Below, piece by piece: positions 24,787 to 31,904 of a stretch of DNA of 32,000 nucleotides (its first letter is position 1; each line of letters begins with the position of its first letter). The notes below the pieces were generated by a model, which searched no databases, was not told the DNA's origin, and saw only the letters and a program-made list of their open reading frames with translations. Both the position numbers and the translations under genes were made by a program. Source of the DNA: Acidobacteria bacterium Mor1 (GTDB lineage: Bacteria; Acidobacteriota; Polarisedimenticolia; Polarisedimenticolales; Polarisedimenticolaceae). The stretch spans positions 4,546,332 to 4,578,331 of the forward strand of contig CP011806.1 in NCBI GenBank assembly GCA_001664505.1, read 5' to 3'.

Positions 24787-27462
24787 ATGGCCACCATCGA
24801 CGAGGCGCCCCAGGACCCGCAGCTGGAACAGCTCGAAAACGAGGAGTGGATCGAGTCCCTGGACTACGTGATCAAGCAGGGGGGCACCGGCCGGGTGCGC
24901 CGGCTGCTGCGTCACCTCCAGCGGCGCGCGGCCGAGTTCGGCATCTCCCTGCCGTACACCGCCAACACCCCCTACGTGAACACCATCCCGCGCCATGCCC
25001 AGCCCCGTTTTCCCGGGAACCGGGCGATCGAGCGCCGGATCAAGAGCATCATCCGTTGGAACGCCATGGCCATGGTCGTGCGGGCCAACCGGGTCGAGAG
25101 CGGTATCGGCGGGCACATCTCGACCTTCGCCTCGGCGGCGACCCTCTACGAGGTGGCGTTCAACCACTTCTTCAAGGGCAAGGACGACCCCAACGGCGGC
25201 GACCTGATCTATTTCCAGGGCCACGCCGCTCCGGGCATCTACGCCCGGGCATTTCTCGAGGGCCGGTTGAGTGTCGAGCAGCTCGAGAACTTCCGCCGCG
25301 AGCTGGCGCCGGGCGGGGGGCTCTCCTCCTACCCGCACCCCTGGCTGATGCCGGGCTTCTGGGAGTTTCCCACGGTCTCCATGGGCCTCGGCCCGATCAT
25401 GGCGATCTATCAGGCGCGCTTCAATCGCTACCTGGAAGACCGCGGTTTGAAGGAGCGCACCGGCAAGGTCTGGGCCTTCCTCGGCGACGGCGAAACCGAC
25501 GAGCCCGAATCTCTCGGAGCCATCAGCCTCGCCGCCCGGGAAGATCTGGACAACCTGGTGTTCGTGATCAACTGCAATCTGCAGCGTCTCGACGGACCGG
25601 TGCGGGGTAACGGCAAGATCGTCCAGGAACTCGAGGCGATCTTCCGCGGCGCCGGCTGGAACGTGATCAAGTGCCTGTGGGGCGACAGCTGGGATCCGCT
25701 GTTCGAGGCGGACGAACACGGCCTGCTGGCCGAGCGGATGGACCACGCCGTCGACGGCGAGTACCAGAACTACAGCGTCAAGGGCGGCGCCTACGTTCGG
25801 GAGAACCTGTTCGGCACCGACCCGCGGCTGAAGCAGATGGTCGATCACCTGACCGACGACGAACTGGCCCGCTTGCGCCGCGGTGGTCACGATCCCGAGA
25901 AGGTCTTCGCCGCCTACAAGGCCGCCATGGACCACACCGGCGCGCCGACGGTCATCCTGGCCAAGACGGTCAAGGGCTACGGTCTCGGCGAAGCGGGTGA
26001 AGGCAAGAACATCACCCACCAGCAGAAGAAGCTCAACGAAGAGGAGCTGCGGGAGTTCCGCGGCCGCTTCGGCATTCCGATTTCCGACGACGAGGTCGGC
26101 GAGGCACCCTTCTACCGCCCGGCCGACGATACGCCCGAGATGGTCTATCTGCGCGAGCGGCGGATGAACCTGGGCGGCTTCGTGCCCTCCCGCCAGGGAG
26201 ACTGCGATCCGATCGATCTGCCCGACGACAAGGTGTTCCAGGGCTTGATCGAAGCCTCCACCGATCGCGAGGCCTCGACCACGATGGTCTTCGTGCGGCT
26301 TCTCGCGCAGCTGCTCAAGGATCCGAAGATCGGCAAGCTCTGCGTGCCGATCGTCCCCGACGAGGCGCGCACCTTCGGAATGGAGTCGATGTTCCGCCAG
26401 GTCGGCATCTACTCCCACTCAGGTCAGAAGTACGAGCCGGTCGACCGCGAGACGCTCCTGTACTACAAGGAAGCCACGGACGGCCAGATCCTGGAGGAGG
26501 GGATCACCGAGGCGGGTTCGATGTCCTCGTTCATCGCCGCCGGCACCTCCTACGCCTCCCACGGCGTGCCGACGATCCCGTTCTTCATTTTCTACTCGAT
26601 GTTCGGCTTCCAGCGGATCGGCGATCTGATCTGGGCCGCCGGCGACATGCGTTGCCGCGGCTTCCTGCTCGGCGCCACCGCCGGCCGCACCACGCTGGCC
26701 GGCGAAGGCCTGCAGCACCAGGACGGTCACAGCCACGTGCTGGCCTCGACCCATCCTCACGTGGTGGCCTACGATCCCGCCTTCGCCTACGAGATCGCGG
26801 TGATCATCCGCGACGGCATCCACCGCATGTATGTCGACGGCGACCCGGTGATCTACTACCTGACCATCGAGAACGAGCAGTACACCATGCCCGCGATGCC
26901 CGAAGGCTGCGAGCAGGGCATCCTCGACGGCATGTACCGGCTGCTGCCCGCAGAAGGCAAGAAGGGCGCGCCGAAGGTCACCCTGCTCGGCAGCGGCGCC
27001 ATCGCCAACGAAACGATCAAGGCCCGGGAGATCCTCGCCGAGAAGTACGGCGTGGCCGCCGAGGTCTGGAGCGTGACCAGCTACCAGCAACTGTTCCGCC
27101 AGGGGCAGGACGCCGACCGCCACAACCGGCTGCATCCGTTGGACCGCCAGCGGGTGCCCTACGTCAACACCGCGCTACAGGGTGCGGAGCTGGTGGTCGC
27201 CGCATCGGACTACAGCAAGCTGATGCCCGAGTCGGTCTCCCGCTGGGTCGACGGCGAGATGATCTGTCTCGGAACCGACGGCTTCGGCCGCAGCGAAGGC
27301 CGCGGTCCGCTGCGCGAGTTCTTCGAGGTCGACGCCCGGCACATCGCTTTCGCGGCGTTGACCGGTCTCCTGGGTCAGAAGAAGATCAAGCCCGAGGTGG
27401 TCAAGCAGGCCATCAAGGATCTCTCCATCGATCCCGACAAGGCGAATCCCCGGCTGGCCTGA
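24787..27462 (+). CDS. aceE: Pyruvate dehydrogenase E1 component (homodimeric AceE type)
   Basis: The 891-aa product reads ...EWIESLDYVIKQGG..R...LL...A...G...P....TPYVNTIP...FQGHAAPGIYARAFLEGRL...GLGP...FLGDGE.DEPES. AAGGAG precedes ATG 24787. Confidence 0.95.
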   Translation: MATIDEAPQDPQLEQLENEEWIESLDYVIKQGGTGRVRRLLRHLQRRAAEFGISLPYTANTPYVNTIPRHAQPRFPGNRAIERRIKSIIRWNAMAMVVRANRVESGIGGHISTFASAATLYEVAFNHFFKGKDDPNGGDLIYFQGHAAPGIYARAFLEGRLSVEQLENFRRELAPGGGLSSYPHPWLMPGFWEFPTVSMGLGPIMAIYQARFNRYLEDRGLKERTGKVWAFLGDGETDEPESLGAISLAAREDLDNLVFVINCNLQRLDGPVRGNGKIVQELEAIFRGAGWNVIKCLWGDSWDPLFEADEHGLLAERMDHAVDGEYQNYSVKGGAYVRENLFGTDPRLKQMVDHLTDDELARLRRGGHDPEKVFAAYKAAMDHTGAPTVILAKTVKGYGLGEAGEGKNITHQQKKLNEEELREFRGRFGIPISDDEVGEAPFYRPADDTPEMVYLRERRMNLGGFVPSRQGDCDPIDLPDDKVFQGLIEASTDREASTTMVFVRLLAQLLKDPKIGKLCVPIVPDEARTFGMESMFRQVGIYSHSGQKYEPVDRETLLYYKEATDGQILEEGITEAGSMSSFIAAGTSYASHGVPTIPFFIFYSMFGFQRIGDLIWAAGDMRCRGFLLGATAGRTTLAGEGLQHQDGHSHVLASTHPHVVAYDPAFAYEIAVIIRDGIHRMYVDGDPVIYYLTIENEQYTMPAMPEGCEQGILDGMYRLLPAEGKKGAPKVTLLGSGAIANETIKAREILAEKYGVAAEVWSVTSYQQLFRQGQDADRHNRLHPLDRQRVPYVNTALQGAELVVAASDYSKLMPESVSRWVDGEMICLGTDGFGRSEGRGPLREFFEVDARHIAFAALTGLLGQKKIKPEVVKQAIKDLSIDPDKANPRLA

Positions 27463-27491
27463 GTCCAGGCACAAAAGGAAGGCACGGACGC

Positions 27492-28829
27492 ATGATCCAA
27501 GAGCTGAAGCTCCCGGAGTTGGGTGAAGGTATCGATAACGTCGAGGTCACCGGCGTGCTGGTGGCGCCGGGGGACACGGTCAAACAGGACCAGCCGGTCC
27601 TGGAGGTCGAGACCGAGAAGGCCAGTCTCGAGGTGCCCTGCCCCTTTGCCGGCACGGTGAAGGAGGTCCGGGTCGAGCCGGGCAGCAAGATCTCGGTCGG
27701 CGCCACGGTGCTGACCGTAGATACCGCTGCCGAGGGTGCGGCGGAAGCTCCGGCTGCGCCGGCGGAATCCGCGGCGCCTGCCGAGACGCCCGCTCCGACC
27801 CCGCCGGCCCCTGCACCGGCTGCCCCGGTCGCCGCTGCAACCGCTCCTGCGGCTGCCGCCACGGCGGCGGCTGCGGCTGAGCCGATGGCCGAAGTGGTCG
27901 AGTTCAACCGAGGTGCCCAGCCGGAAGCGGGGGATCCGCCGCCGGCGGCTCCTTCGGTCCGCCGCGTGGCCCGGGAGCTGGGCGTCGACATTCGCCGGGT
28001 GCCCGGTTCCGGCCCCGCCGGCCGTATCTCGATCGAGGACGTCAAGCAATTCGTCAAACAACAGATGCAGCGTCCTGCGCCGAGCGGCGGCGCCACGATC
28101 ATGGAGCTGCCGGACCAGTCCCGGTTCGGCCCGATCGAGCGGGAGAAGCTCAGCCGGCTGCGCATGTCGGCCGCCGAGAAGCTGACGGCAACCTGGAACG
28201 CCGCGCCCCACGTGACGCAGCACGACCGGGCGGACATCACCGATCTGGAAGCGGCTCGCAGGGCTTTCGGCAAACGGGCCGAGAAGGTCGGCGCCAAGCT
28301 GACGGTCACCGCCATCGCGCTCAAGATCGCCGCCAGCGCGCTCAAGGTCTTCCCTCAGTTCAACGCCTCGCTGGATCTGCAGAACGGTGAGGTGGTGCGC
28401 AAGAAGTACGTGCACCTGGGGGTGGCGGTGGATACCGACCGGGGCTTGCTGGTGCCGGTGATTCGCGACGCCGACCGGAAGAACGCCATCGAACTGGCGG
28501 TGGAGGTCGGCGACCTGGCCAAGCGGGCCCGTGATCGCAAGCTGACGCCCGACGAGATGCAGGGTTCCTGTTTCACCCTGAGCAACCTCGGTGGTCTCGG
28601 GACCACCTACTTCACTCCGATCCTCAACTTCCCCGACGTGGCGATCCTCGGACTGGGACGCGGCGAGGTGCAGGCGGTCTACAAGGACGGCGAATTCGTG
28701 CCCCGCACGATCCTGCCGCTGTCGCTCTCATACGACCATCGCTGGATCGACGGCGCCGATGCCGCGCGCTTCTTGCGCTGGATCGCCGAGGCGTTGGAAA
28801 ACCCGGTTCTCGTCGCGCTGGAGGGCTGA
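27492..28829 (+). CDS. aceF: Dihydrolipoyllysine-residue acetyltransferase (E2) with a single lipoyl domain
   Basis: AAGGAAGG precedes ATG 27492. There is one lipoyl domain (LEVETEKASLEVP). An Ala/Pro-rich linker follows, then the E3-binding domain (PSVRRVARELGVDIRRVPGSGPAGRI) and the catalytic domain ending LSLSYDHRWIDGADAARFL. Confidence 0.9.
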   Translation: MIQELKLPELGEGIDNVEVTGVLVAPGDTVKQDQPVLEVETEKASLEVPCPFAGTVKEVRVEPGSKISVGATVLTVDTAAEGAAEAPAAPAESAAPAETPAPTPPAPAPAAPVAAATAPAAAATAAAAAEPMAEVVEFNRGAQPEAGDPPPAAPSVRRVARELGVDIRRVPGSGPAGRISIEDVKQFVKQQMQRPAPSGGATIMELPDQSRFGPIEREKLSRLRMSAAEKLTATWNAAPHVTQHDRADITDLEAARRAFGKRAEKVGAKLTVTAIALKIAASALKVFPQFNASLDLQNGEVVRKKYVHLGVAVDTDRGLLVPVIRDADRKNAIELAVEVGDLAKRARDRKLTPDEMQGSCFTLSNLGGLGTTYFTPILNFPDVAILGLGRGEVQAVYKDGEFVPRTILPLSLSYDHRWIDGADAARFLRWIAEALENPVLVALEG

Positions 28830-28832
28830 GCC

Positions 28833-30257
28833 GTGGCCGAGACCTCGACGACCCAGCTCGCCGTGATCGGCGGCGGTCCCGGCGGCTATGCCGCGGCGTT
28901 CCTCGCGGCCGATCTCGGTATGGAGGTCACGCTGATCGACCTCGAGGCCAACCCGGGAGGGGTTTGCCTGTACCGCGGCTGCATTCCGTCCAAGGCGCTG
29001 CTGCACGTGGCGAAGCTGCTGGACGAAACCCGCCATGCGGCGGAGTGGGGCATCGAATTCGGCGAGCCACGGATCAAGCTGGCCAAGCTGCGCGCCTTCA
29101 AGGAGCGGGTGGTCGACAAGCTGACCGGCGGCGTCGGCCAGGTGGCCAAGCTGCGCAAGGTCCGTTTCGTCCGCGGCCGGGCGAAACTGCTCGACGCTCA
29201 CCGGGTCGAGATCGATCTGGTCGAGGGCGGACGGGAGACGCTCGAGTTCCAGCACGCGATCCTGGCCACCGGTTCCGAGCCGGCCAAGGTGCCCGGATTC
29301 CCTGAAGATCCCGAACGGATTCTCGATTCCACCGGTGCCCTCGAGCTCAGGGATGTGCCGGAGAAGCTGCTGGTCGTCGGTGGCGGTTACATCGGCCTCG
29401 AACTCGGCAGTGTCTACGCGGCGCTGGGCAGCAAGGTCACCGTCGTCGAGATGATGCCGTCGCTCCTGGCCGGCGCCGATCCCGACCTGGTGCGGCCGTT
29501 GGCCCGCAAGATCGAAGAACGCGTCGACTCGGTGCTGCTCGAGACCCGGGTCGCCGGAATGAAGGTTCAGAAGAATGGCGTCAAGGTCCGCTTCGAGGGA
29601 AAGAACGCCGTCGACGGTGAGAAGCTCTTCGACAAGGTACTGGTCTCCATCGGCCGCAGGCCCAACTCCGCGGGGCTCGGCCTCGAGAGCACGGCGGTGG
29701 TGGTCGACGACCGCGGCTTCGTCCAGGTCGATCAGCAGCTGCGCACCCGGGAGCCCTCGATCTACGCCATCGGCGATCTGGTGGGGCAGCCGATGCTGGC
29801 CCACAAGGCGTCCCACGAAGGGCGTACCGCCGTCGAGGCGATCGCCGGCCACAAGGTAGCCTTCGAACCCGCCGCGATTCCCGCCGTGGTGTTCACCGAC
29901 CCCGAGGTCGCCTGGTGCGGCCTGACCGAAACCGAGGCCAAGGCGCGGGACCGCAAGGTCTCGGTAGCCCGGTTCCCCTGGGCCGCTTCAGGGCGTGCCC
30001 AGACCCTGGACCGCAGCGACGGGGTGACCAAGCTGATCTTCGATCCGGAGACCGAGCGCGTGTTGGGAGTCGGTATCTGCGGTCCCGGCGCCGGTGAATT
30101 GATCGCCGAGGGTGTGCTGGCCGTCGAGATGGCGGCGACCGCCACCGATCTCAAGCTCTCGATCCATCCGCACCCGACCCTGTCGGAGACGGTGATGGAG
30201 TCCGCCGAGGTCTTCTTCGGTCAGAGCACCCACGTCTTCCGGCCGGTCAAGAAGTAG
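28833..30257 (+). CDS. lpdA: Dihydrolipoyl dehydrogenase (E3)
   Basis: GTG 28833 lies 3 nt after the aceF stop. Recognisable elements are the FAD motif VIGGGPGGYAAA, the redox disulfide GGVCLYRGCIPSK, the NAD motif VVGGGYIGLE, and the C-terminal HPHPTLSE. Confidence 0.95.
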   Translation: MAETSTTQLAVIGGGPGGYAAAFLAADLGMEVTLIDLEANPGGVCLYRGCIPSKALLHVAKLLDETRHAAEWGIEFGEPRIKLAKLRAFKERVVDKLTGGVGQVAKLRKVRFVRGRAKLLDAHRVEIDLVEGGRETLEFQHAILATGSEPAKVPGFPEDPERILDSTGALELRDVPEKLLVVGGGYIGLELGSVYAALGSKVTVVEMMPSLLAGADPDLVRPLARKIEERVDSVLLETRVAGMKVQKNGVKVRFEGKNAVDGEKLFDKVLVSIGRRPNSAGLGLESTAVVVDDRGFVQVDQQLRTREPSIYAIGDLVGQPMLAHKASHEGRTAVEAIAGHKVAFEPAAIPAVVFTDPEVAWCGLTETEAKARDRKVSVARFPWAASGRAQTLDRSDGVTKLIFDPETERVLGVGICGPGAGELIAEGVLAVEMAATATDLKLSIHPHPTLSETVMESAEVFFGQSTHVFRPVKK

Positions 30258-30275: not shown

Positions 30276-31904
30276 CTAGGAGTCCTGCATCAGCTCGCGA
30301 AGCTGATCTTCCATGCAGGTTTCGCACAGCCCGTGGGTGAAGGTCGCCTCGGAGTTGCGGTCGATGTACGCCTCGACCTGATTCCAGTAGCCGGCCTCGT
30401 CACGGATCTTCTTGCAGACCGCGCAGATCGGAAGCAGCCCTGAGAGCACCTTGATCTGGTCCAGCCGTGCGGCTTTCTCGCGCTCGTGACGAGCCGATTC
30501 TTCGGCGGCGCGGGCGCGCAGGCGCTCCCGGTTGTAGAGCAGCCCGGCGACGATGAGCAGCAGCGTGAAGAGAACCAGCATTACCTGCCGGGTCTGCTGT
30601 TGGCGCTCGAGAACCAGCGCCTGGTAGGCCTCCTTCTGTTCGAGGAGTTCGATCTCCTTCTGCTGCATGTCCAGTTCGAACAGGGTCGTCGCGTCGGCCA
30701 GGCTTGTGGTGCGCTGGGACTCCAGCCGCTGACGCAACAGGGTCTCGTGACGCCGCATGGCATCGAGGGCCGCGTCGCTTCGGCCGAGGGCTTCGTAGGT
30801 CGTGGCCAGTTGGAACACCGCCTCTTCTTCCAGCTTGCGGCGGACCCGGTCGGTCTCGATCCGTTGAATCGTCGCCAGGGTCTGCTCGAGACGGCGAAGC
30901 GAGGCGGCGGCGCCTCCCTGGCTGCGGTCGACCGAGGCCAGCTCGAGTTGCACCGATACTTCTCGTTCCAGGTGCCCTTCGTCGCGCCAGATTTGAAGCG
31001 CCTGTCCAAGGTGATCCCGGGCGGCGTCCAGGTCACCCAGGGCGACGTAGTCCTTGCCGATTGCCGAGATCTGGCGGCCGACCTCGAGTCGCAGGTCGAG
31101 CTTCTGCATCGCCTCGAGTCCGCGGCGGTGTGCCGCGAGCGCTTCGTCAGGTCGGCCGGCCTCACGGTGGACATTCCCCATGTCCAGATCCATCAGGGCA
31201 ACCCGGCGAACGTCATCTCGTTCGAGGAAGACCGCGCGAGCCTGCTCGAGGTAGTGCATCGCGTCGTCGAAGTGGCCTAGTCTGCGGTGCACATCCGCCA
31301 CGTTGGATAGCGCGACGGCGGAACCGAGGGGGAGCCACTTCTCCTCGAAGAAGTTGGAAGCCTCGTGGTAGTAGCGGAGCCCGCGCTCGAGATCGCCGAC
31401 GCGGATCTGGGTCTGTCCCAGGGAGATCAGGAGGCCGCCGAGCTGATAGCGGTCGTTCTCTCGCGAGAGCCGTTCGGTGGCGAGGAACACCTCCAGCGCC
31501 CGGGCCTCGCGGCCGGCGTCGGCGTGGATCTGTCCGACGGCTCGCAGTGCCCGGATCTCGAGCTGGGCGTTTCCCGCGGCCCGGGCGTTCGCGAGATTGA
31601 TCTCGGCCAGTTCGAGGGCCCGGTCGAACCGCCCATCCTCCAGGTAGGCCCAGGCCAGCGAGGCGTTGAGCTTGCGAACGAGCTCGGCATCCGCCGTCTC
31701 CTCGTCGACCAGTTCCATGGCCCGCTCGCCGTAGGCGATCGACTGCATCGGGTCGCTGACGTGGAGTTCGTAGGCCCGCTCGACGAGCTTTGCGAAGCTC
31801 TCGGGATCGGCCGGGGGCGTGGCCGCCGGCGGTTCGGCCGAACTCGAGCTCAGCCAGAACAAGGCTGAAACAGCGAACAGGCAGACGCTCAGCCGGTGGA
31901 CCAT
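30276..31904 (-). CDS. Signal-peptide TPR-repeat protein with one C-terminal TM helix and a cytoplasmic CxxC...H..CxxC tail (putative transmembrane sensor/adaptor)
   Basis: The signal peptide is MVHRLSVCLFAVSALFWLSSSSAEP. About nine TPR-like 40-aa repeats follow. The TM helix VMLVLFTLLLIVAGLLY is encoded at about 30531-30584. After a charged helix comes LLPICAVCKKIRDEAGYWNQVEAYIDRNSEATFTHGLCETC, encoded at about 30279-30437. Confidence 0.7.
   Translation of the reverse strand: MVHRLSVCLFAVSALFWLSSSSAEPPAATPPADPESFAKLVERAYELHVSDPMQSIAYGERAMELVDEETADAELVRKLNASLAWAYLEDGRFDRALELAEINLANARAAGNAQLEIRALRAVGQIHADAGREARALEVFLATERLSRENDRYQLGGLLISLGQTQIRVGDLERGLRYYHEASNFFEEKWLPLGSAVALSNVADVHRRLGHFDDAMHYLEQARAVFLERDDVRRVALMDLDMGNVHREAGRPDEALAAHRRGLEAMQKLDLRLEVGRQISAIGKDYVALGDLDAARDHLGQALQIWRDEGHLEREVSVQLELASVDRSQGGAAASLRRLEQTLATIQRIETDRVRRKLEEEAVFQLATTYEALGRSDAALDAMRRHETLLRQRLESQRTTSLADATTLFELDMQQKEIELLEQKEAYQALVLERQQQTRQVMLVLFTLLLIVAGLLYNRERLRARAAEESARHEREKAARLDQIKVLSGLLPICAVCKKIRDEAGYWNQVEAYIDRNSEATFTHGLCETCMEDQLRELMQDS

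What the first reader, a model, noticed from the sequence alone, without database searches (positions are those of the whole stretch)
30276..31904. Exported TPR array - single TM - cytoplasmic CxxC...H..CxxC tail: a one-protein transmembrane signalling architecture without a known output domain
Seen in sequence: a cleavable-looking signal peptide is followed by about 400 aa of TPR-like repeats that should therefore be periplasmic. Then come one TM helix (about 30531-30584) and a charged helix. The last 53 residues are LLPICAVCKKIRDEAGYWNQVEAYIDRNSEATFTHGLCETCMEDQL (about 30279-30437). From memory, closely similar C-terminal sequences (ICxxCKKIRDD.G.W...E.Y....S.A.F(S/T)HG(I/L)C..C) terminate many otherwise unrelated sensory proteins, and I know of no assigned function. 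The four Cys plus one His suggest a small zinc-ribbon-like module. Inference: periplasmic TPR-mediated recognition may be transmitted to a cytoplasmic Zn-module that acts as the output, by binding protein or nucleic acid.
Basis: partly seen in the sequence, partly recalled or inferred. Interest (0 to 1): 0.6.

Follow-up and report, generated by a model that had tools for sequence, protein, structure and literature searches.

The report
Periplasmic TPR sensor with unnamed Cys4 tail
This gene encodes a membrane receptor with repeats outside the cell membrane and, as its only cytoplasmic domain, a tiny four-cysteine module; that module ends tens of thousands of bacterial sensor proteins where a kinase normally sits, yet no searched database, structure or paper describes it.

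Summary
ORF 30276-31904 (-) encodes a 542-aa protein with these parts in order:
- a signal peptide
- a ~330-aa TPR array
- one TM helix (residues 440-458)
- a charged heptad helix
- a ~50-aa module, LPIC-x2-CK-x-IRD...W...E-x-Y...F-T-H-x2-C-x2-C

The module matched no model in Pfam (2025 copy) or NCBIfam 20. It had no significant sequence or fold match in the PDB, and none of 9 literature searches found it.

The module is very common: 19,723 50%-identity cluster representatives match it. It is nearly always C-terminal and follows PAS, REC, GAF, Cache, SBP, 7TM, propeller and, rarely, TPR input domains.

- This genome carries three colinear TPR-TM-tail paralogues and one REC-tail response regulator.
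- In four related genomes the REC-tail gene is translationally coupled to a hybrid kinase with Hpt, so it is the likely terminal acceptor of a phosphorelay.
- On one metagenome contig a TPR-TM-tail gene sits 17 nt after a paralogous TPR histidine kinase.

These results support the tail being an output domain. Its metal, oligomeric state and target are untested. The Fur/PerR-like fold suggested by earlier scan notes was not supported by my tests. This scan has noted the same module on other DNA (55 notes hold the search words; the eight follow-ups shown describe it).

The parts
30276..31904 (-). Whole gene, 542 codons plus stop: signal peptide, TPR array, TM helix, coiled coil, Cys4 tail
   Evidence: singleton 90% cluster held in NCBI nr
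31836..31904 (-). Residues 1-23: Sec-type signal peptide (MVHR, hydrophobic core, SSA|E)
   Evidence: hydropathy scan; read directly from the sequence; cleavage not tested
30726..31715 (-). Residues ~64-393: TPR_12-type repeat array, predicted periplasmic input domain
   Evidence: Pfam and NCBIfam matches; colinear with paralogues and P0211
30588..30725 (-). Residues ~394-439: periplasmic juxtamembrane helix with the F-E-L-D...QKEIELLEQKE motif, shared with P0211 and with the neighbouring TPR kinase on contig L189
   Evidence: pairwise alignments
30531..30587 (-). Residues 440-458: single transmembrane helix
   Evidence: Kyte-Doolittle mean 2.15 over 19 residues; 5 K/R within 15 residues after it
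30441..30530 (-). Residues 459-488: charged cytoplasmic heptad helix that runs in phase into the tail
   Evidence: a/d hydrophobic pattern at A2 columns 10, 13/14, 17, 20, 24 in 79 sequences; helix in the AlphaFold model
30279..30455 (-). Residues 484-542: Cys4/His tail module (strand, CxxC knuckle, helix, strand, CxxC at the helix start)
30414..30425 (-). Cys494-x2-Cys497, first knuckle (invariant)
30315..30335 (-). His524-x2-Cys527-x2-Cys530, invariant His and second knuckle

Best explanation
The protein is a one-component transmembrane receptor. Its periplasmic TPR array binds an unknown envelope ligand, most plausibly a peptide or protein. The receptor is most likely a dimer, and the signal passes through the single TM helix and an in-phase heptad helix to a pair of C-terminal Cys4 modules. 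Each module is probably held together by one metal ion (Zn most likely) bound by the two CxxC knuckles. The module is the output: a signal-dependent change in the geometry or exposure of the paired modules controls binding to a conserved cellular partner. That partner is more likely a protein than a nucleic acid. It is probably a housekeeping component, because no dedicated partner gene travels with the module. Shown here: the architecture, the topology arguments, the recurrence and conservation of the module, and its position at the end of phosphorelays and in place of kinase or GGDEF modules. Inferred, not shown: metal binding, dimerisation, the signalling mechanism and the existence of a partner.
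For: The module is always terminal: the median is 18 residues after the last Cys in 167 proteins. It follows only input domains. In 77 genome loci the counts were PAS 32, REC 16, SBP_bac_3 5, GAF 4, HAMP 3, then MASE, Cache, PocR and TPR; no kinase, GGDEF or HTH appeared among the 25 commonest families. REC-tail proteins have a complete PhoB/OmpR-type receiver and nothing else. In G004, G016, G010 and G076 the REC-tail gene overlaps by 4 nt the end of a PAS/CHASE8-HisKA-HATPase_c-REC-REC-Hpt hybrid kinase gene. On contig L189, a gene 17 nt upstream of a full-length relative of this protein (P0211, E 3e-45) encodes a TPR-HisKA-HATPase_c kinase. That kinase is 37% identical over 294 aa of the TPR array and then diverges. 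P0279 has the same layout (N-terminal hydrophobic stretch, TPR, TM) but ends in GGDEF, and P0285 is TPR-TM-HATPase_c. The heptad register is fixed up to the module in 79 sequences. Polar non-ligand residues K, R, W, E and H stay >=90% conserved even in a less biased set of 24 tails, whereas a Fur dimerisation domain from one order keeps only two His. No neighbour is conserved across 78 loci, among the three paralogues, or among P0001, P0211 and P0212. Many genomes carry a single copy, and the module is patchy: 73 of 200 good genomes of the phylum.
Against: No partner, ligand, metal or phenotype is known, and everything about function rests on position and conservation. The conservation figures for the 78-sequence set are inflated because those sequences were picked as the best pattern matches. 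A module that only dimerises would also be terminal and follow a coiled coil. The AlphaFold models are monomers without metal. pLDDT is 79 and 87, and the two models differ in the middle: a hairpin in one, a longer helix in the other.
Confidence: 0.5

Rival explanations
1. The tail is only a metal-locked dimerisation cap with no partner of its own. On this view, tail proteins act through their input domains or coiled coils, for example as kinase-less decoys or as modulators that compete or pair with paralogous kinases carrying the same sensor.
For: Cys4 sites commonly lock dimerisation domains (established for Fur-family proteins). A TPR-tail gene lies directly after a paralogous TPR kinase on contig L189. 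No partner gene is conserved nearby.
Against: REC-tail proteins are terminal acceptors of phosphorelays and carry no other domain. Five polar or aromatic non-ligand positions are >=90% conserved across divergent tails, more than a simple clamp needs. Short proteins made of just a coiled coil and the tail exist.
Confidence: 0.2
2. The tail is a second input rather than an output: a thiol, zinc or iron-sulfur redox switch that gates the sensor by oxidation or metal loss.
For: The module has four invariant Cys and an invariant His. It is abundant in Desulfobacterota, Nitrospirota, Spirochaetota and other lineages labelled that, from my own knowledge, are largely anaerobic. The 29-residue spacing equals that of rubredoxin (own knowledge, not tested).
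Against: These proteins would then have no output at all, including REC-tail regulators fed by dedicated kinases. No rubredoxin, Fe-S or ZAS model matches. The heptad helix in fixed register is what is seen in front of output domains.
Confidence: 0.12
3. The tail binds DNA or RNA directly, which would make this protein a membrane-tethered regulator in the manner of ToxR or CadC.
For: Small Cys4 fingers often bind nucleic acids. The first knuckle is followed by a conserved K-K-I-R. Small dimeric RNA-binding outputs such as ANTAR exist (PMC3369931).
Against: The core is slightly acidic (mean net charge -1.4 in 78 tails, -2 here). No nucleic-acid-binding family or solved structure matches.
Confidence: 0.1

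Closest known systems
FimS-type sensor histidine kinases with a periplasmic TPR domain (Porphyromonas gingivalis FimS; PMC11053733, NCBIfam NF053520)
   Same: A TPR array of about eight repeats lies outside the membrane and is followed by a TM helix and a cytoplasmic helix. There is a weak NCBIfam match over residues 213-463. The ligand is unknown there as well.
   Different: FimS ends in HisKA-HATPase_c; this protein ends in the Cys4 tail. The score is 28.7 bits against a cut-off of 600, so it is not a member.
TPR-TM-GGDEF and TPR-TM-kinase proteins found here (P0279, P0285, L189:1-1782)
   Same: They share the same order of parts up to the cytoplasmic helix. The L189 kinase shares 37% identity over 294 aa of TPR array and the juxtamembrane motif with a full-length relative of this protein.
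   Different: Their output is an enzyme of known function. Here it is a 50-aa module of unknown function.
Response regulators with small non-enzymatic outputs, including the archaeal REC-HalOD2 with two CXXC motifs (Galperin et al. 2018, PMC5847659)
   Same: A receiver domain is followed by a short domain with two CxxC pairs that is predicted to bind metal. REC-tail proteins exist in this genome and in relatives.
   Different: HalOD2 is about 130 aa, has 20-25 residues between its CxxC pairs, and is confined to a few halobacteria. Its Pfam model PF18547 does not match the tail.
C-terminal Zn(Cys)4 dimerisation domain of Fur-family regulators
   Same: Both have two CxxC pairs, the first after a strand and the second after a later strand, with a helix between. 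hhalign places both pairs in register with one 6-residue gap.

Membership tests
Unnamed Cys4 sensor-tail module (working signature L-x-G-x-L-P-I-C-x2-C-K-x-I-R-D-x4-W-x3-E-x-Y-x8-F-[TS]-H-x2-C-x2-C) | Significant sequence match to other members | tested here: met
   Non-self hits at E 4e-18 to 1e-10; 10,399 representatives at E<=1e-10
Unnamed Cys4 sensor-tail module (working signature L-x-G-x-L-P-I-C-x2-C-K-x-I-R-D-x4-W-x3-E-x-Y-x8-F-[TS]-H-x2-C-x2-C) | Two CxxC pairs 29 residues apart plus the invariant L, G, P, I, K, G, W, E, F, H | tested here: met
   All 14 invariant columns of A4 are present in the window protein
Unnamed Cys4 sensor-tail module (working signature L-x-G-x-L-P-I-C-x2-C-K-x-I-R-D-x4-W-x3-E-x-Y-x8-F-[TS]-H-x2-C-x2-C) | C-terminal position directly after an in-phase heptad helix | tested here: met
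   12 residues follow the last Cys; heptad pattern; family median 18 residues
Unnamed Cys4 sensor-tail module (working signature L-x-G-x-L-P-I-C-x2-C-K-x-I-R-D-x4-W-x3-E-x-Y-x8-F-[TS]-H-x2-C-x2-C) | Binds one metal ion through the four Cys | not testable with these tools
   Inferred from invariant Cys only
Fur-family dimerisation domain (Pfam FUR PF01475) | Significant sequence or profile match | tested here: not met
   No Pfam hit. No Fur chain in the PDB profile search. hhalign P 0.0035-0.0046, little better than the DksA control at 0.009-0.019
Fur-family dimerisation domain (Pfam FUR PF01475) | Matching fold | tested here: inconclusive
Fur-family dimerisation domain (Pfam FUR PF01475) | Preceded by a winged-helix DNA-binding domain | tested here: not met
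   Preceded by TPR, TM and a coiled coil
Sensor histidine kinase (FimS type, NF053520) | HisKA and HATPase_c transmitter | tested here: not met
   No such Pfam hit; NF053520 scores 28.7 bits against a cut-off of 600
Sensor histidine kinase (FimS type, NF053520) | TPR array between an N-terminal hydrophobic segment and a TM helix | tested here: met
Rubredoxin / LapB-type rubredoxin-like domain | Match to the family models; all-loop/strand knuckle fold | tested here: not met
   No Pfam or NCBIfam hit. The model has two helices. A TM helix separates the TPR array from the tail, unlike LapB (the LapB layout is from my own knowledge)
HalOD2 (PF18547) | Match to the Pfam model | tested here: not met
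   Absent; described in PMC5847659
ZAS anti-sigma domain (zf-HC2, H-x3-C-x2-C) | Match to the model; N-terminal helical domain | tested here: not met
   No hit. The motif here is H-x2-C-x2-C at the C-terminus

The most novel reading that the evidence does not exclude
The Cys4 tail is a previously undescribed major class of bacterial signalling output domain. It would be used by one-component receptors, phosphorelay response regulators and membrane sensors in many phyla, and would act on a still unidentified housekeeping target. This implies that a widespread signalling route has been missed.
Probability: 0.45. Interest if true: 0.8.

Novelty: new variant of a known kind. Interest (0 to 1): 0.62.

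Why it matters
Censuses of bacterial signal transduction classify sensors by their output domains: kinase, cyclase, phosphodiesterase or DNA binding. Proteins ending in this module would be classed as having no output, or are named only after their input ('PAS domain S-box protein', 'hypothetical protein'). The module occurs in about 20,000 50%-identity clusters. It is present in a third of good genomes of this phylum, with up to 19 copies per genome. Finding its target would therefore assign a function to a very large set of sensors at once. REC-tail regulators fed by a dedicated hybrid kinase offer a simple, switchable entry point for that experiment.

Tried and rejected
- **Family libraries and PDB sequences.** Pfam, NCBIfam and PDB sequence searches of the tail gave only chance-level hits, singly and as a profile. 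These were zf-C4pol at 0.04, IBIN, and an 18-residue match to an EXOG helix at E 0.2-1.
- **DUF3039.** Its match in 62 of 79 tails is an 11-18-residue knuckle match of at most about 17 bits in the members inspected, below the 22.7 cut-off.
- **Fur-domain homology.** Not supported. See the controls and the fold searches.
- **LapB/YciM (TM-TPR-rubredoxin-like).** Rejected because no model matches and a TM helix lies between the TPR array and the tail.
- **Conserved partner gene.** Clustering the neighbours of 78 loci gave nothing beyond other PAS/REC signalling genes. The three paralogues share no neighbour, and neither do P0001, P0211 and P0212.
- **Close homologues of the TPR array.** Only generic TPR_12 proteins appeared until a five-sequence profile was used.
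- **Literature.** Nine full-text searches found no description of the module.
- **Tool problems.** No library of predicted cellular structures was on hand.

Full report
**The gene.** The ORF at 30276-31904 on the minus strand begins at the first start codon after the upstream stop and encodes 542 residues. It converges on lpdA, the last gene of an aceE / E2 / lpdA cluster, with 18 bp between the two stop codons. Upstream it diverges, across 83 bp, from a PknB-type Ser/Thr kinase gene that is followed by an ECF-type sigma-like gene. Both lie just beyond the window end. The protein is a singleton at 90% identity in the 15-billion-protein collection.

**Anatomy.**
- Residues 5-23 are hydrophobic, preceded by MVHR and followed by SSA|E. 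This is the usual form of a Sec signal peptide.
- Pfam finds TPR_12 (1.4e-25, six stretches) and several single-repeat TPR models. NCBIfam TPR-containing models align over residues 64-393.
- One strong hydrophobic segment follows at residues 440-458. Five K/R lie in the next 15 residues, against two in the preceding 16.
- Next come a charged helix and the tail. The only cysteines of the mature protein are the four in the tail.

The tail occurs in many soluble PAS and REC proteins: 38 of 77 tail proteins have no hydrophobic segment at all. It must therefore work in the cytoplasm, which places the TPR array in the periplasm.

**The tail is a real, very large and uncurated family.**
- With 58 tail residues as query, 39 other proteins matched at E 4e-18 to 2e-10. 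They carry PAS, GAF, REC, two-component propeller/Y_Y_Y, HisKA_7TM, dCache and CHASE-type N-termini.
- An exhaustive phmmer run against 1.84 billion cluster representatives gave 19,723 hits at E<=1e-3 and 10,399 at E<=1e-10.
The records are labelled Desulfobacterota, Nitrospirota, Verrucomicrobiota, Kiritimatiellia, Acidobacteriota, Spirochaetota, Chloroflexota, Planctomycetota, Elusimicrobiota and others.
- Across 78 of these, 14 columns are invariant: L, G, P, I, C, C, K, G, W, E, F, H, C, C.
- In a less selected set of 24 tails from related genomes, L, P, C, C, K, R, W, E, H, C, C remain >=90% conserved.
- The module is terminal, with a median of 18 residues after the last Cys in 167 proteins. 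A few proteins are tandem sensor-tail-sensor-tail fusions.
- Neither Pfam (2025 copy) nor NCBIfam 20 has a model for it. PDB sequence searches, singly and as a profile, give only chance-level hits.
- Nine literature searches found nothing on it.

**What precedes the tail.** Of 77 full-length ORFs from the genome loci, 32 have PAS, 16 have REC, 5 a periplasmic solute-binding fold and 4 have GAF. Others have HAMP, MASE3, MASE6, Cache, PocR and, in one case, TPR. No kinase, cyclase or DNA-binding family is among the 25 commonest. In 79 aligned sequences a heptad a/d pattern (columns 10, 13/14, 17, 20, 24) runs without a break into the first strand of the module. From my own knowledge, signalling helices run into kinase and GGDEF outputs in the same way.

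**This genome and its relatives.**
- The 5.99-Mb genome has four copies. Three are colinear signal-peptide-TPR-TM-tail proteins, 28% and 26% identical to each other over most of their length. The fourth is a REC-tail protein with all receiver active-site residues.
- Orthologues of this protein, one TPR-TM-tail paralogue and the REC-tail protein occur in the other genome of the genus; no other relative searched has a TPR-TM-tail protein.
- In the wider family and order, the copy most often found is the ~205-aa REC-tail regulator.
- The module is patchy. It is found in 20 of 41 relatives, and in 73 of 200 good genomes (55 of 136 genera) of the phylum, at 1 to 19 copies.
- A profile of five TPR-TM-tail proteins found further full-length relatives in metagenomes: P0211, P0212 and P0214. 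Together with an Acidobacteria MAG, this shows the architecture is rare but not unique.

**Evidence that the tail is an output.**
- In four related genomes the REC-tail gene overlaps by 4 nt the stop of a hybrid kinase gene with PAS or CHASE8/HAMP/GAF inputs, HisKA, HATPase_c, two receivers and Hpt. REC-tail is then the likely terminal acceptor of a phosphorelay, and the tail stands where PhoB-type regulators carry their DNA-binding domain.
- On metagenome contig L189, the gene 17 nt upstream of P0211 is a TPR-HisKA-HATPase_c kinase. Its TPR array and juxtamembrane motif are 37% identical to those of P0211 over 294 residues (E 2e-60). The two proteins differ after that point.
- P0279 has the same N-terminal hydrophobic stretch, TPR and TM layout but ends in GGDEF. 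P0285 ends in a kinase ATPase domain.

Earlier notes of this scan call the module Fur/PerR-like, so I tested that.
- hhalign against 24 Fur proteins of relatives aligns both CxxC pairs, but with P only 0.0035-0.0046.
- The DksA/TraR zinc-finger control gave 0.009-0.019, and a column-reversed Fur control gave 0.10-0.15.

I therefore treat the Fur resemblance as unproven.

**Function.** No neighbour is conserved across 78 loci, among the three paralogues, or among the full-length relatives. Many genomes hold one copy only. A dedicated partner gene is therefore unlikely, and a housekeeping target or a self-contained activity is more likely. The core is slightly acidic (mean -1.4), which weakly disfavours nucleic-acid binding. 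The conservation of K, R, W, E and H beyond the metal ligands exceeds what the Fur dimerisation domain shows. It points to a conserved interaction surface.

My preferred reading, at about 0.5, is a metal-clamped, probably dimeric output module whose partner binding is set by the coiled coil. The rivals are a pure dimerisation cap (0.2), a redox or metal input (0.12) and direct nucleic-acid binding (0.1).

**Standing in the scan.** A word search returned 55 notes in at least 53 other genomes, and the follow-ups shown describe this module and reach the same general conclusion.

Noticed in passing
Own genome G000:C1:3616624-3617260 (-), outside the window; loci L088, L138: This is the REC-tail response regulator of the genome. 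In G000, G001 and G002 it follows a 466-aa ORF with an Arf/MglA-like GTPase N-terminus (Pfam Arf only at E 8e-4; 4-nt overlap read in G001) and converges on a FliL gene. That suggests a possible link to motility or polarity control.
   Followed up: partly
Just beyond the window end: window ~31988 onward = L085:2320-3984 (+) and L085:3981-4706 (+): A PknB-type Ser/Thr kinase gene lies 83 bp divergent from the finding's gene. It is followed, with a 4-nt overlap, by a 241-aa ECF-type sigma-like gene (TIGR02937 at 2.9e-8, below cut-off). This pairing is not seen next to relatives of the TPR-tail gene.
   Followed up: partly
window 24787-30257 (+): A pyruvate dehydrogenase cluster: aceE (TIGR00759), an E2 acyltransferase with lipoyl and E3-binding domains, and lipoamide dehydrogenase (TIGR01350 at 1.4e-148). 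It ends 18 bp from the stop codon of the finding's gene.
   Followed up: yes
Proteins P0041-P0087 (e.g. P0041, P0042, P0044, P0046, P0048): Dozens of representative proteins carry two copies of the module as head-to-tail sensor-tail-sensor-tail units. The tail then sits mid-protein, followed by a second membrane or propeller sensor. They could be real tandem fusions or merged gene calls.
   Followed up: no
Locus L189:1-1782 (+) and L189:1799-3325 (+), metagenome contig: These are adjacent paralogous TPR sensors. The first ends in HisKA-HATPase_c and the second in the Cys4 tail, 17 nt apart.
   Followed up: yes
Tail residues ~503-520 of the window protein; A2 profile columns 35-52: There is a local resemblance of the G-Y-W-N-Q-I-E-x-Y helix to a helix of the nuclease EXOG (E 0.2-1 in the PDB profile search). 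It is probably chance, since no nuclease family model matches.
   Followed up: partly
L086:2142-5081 (+) and L087:4292-5881 (+), upstream of the two paralogues: A 979-aa exported protein and a 529-aa multi-pass membrane protein lie directly upstream of the other two TPR-TM-tail genes. Neither matches any Pfam or NCBIfam family, and they are unrelated to each other.
   Followed up: partly
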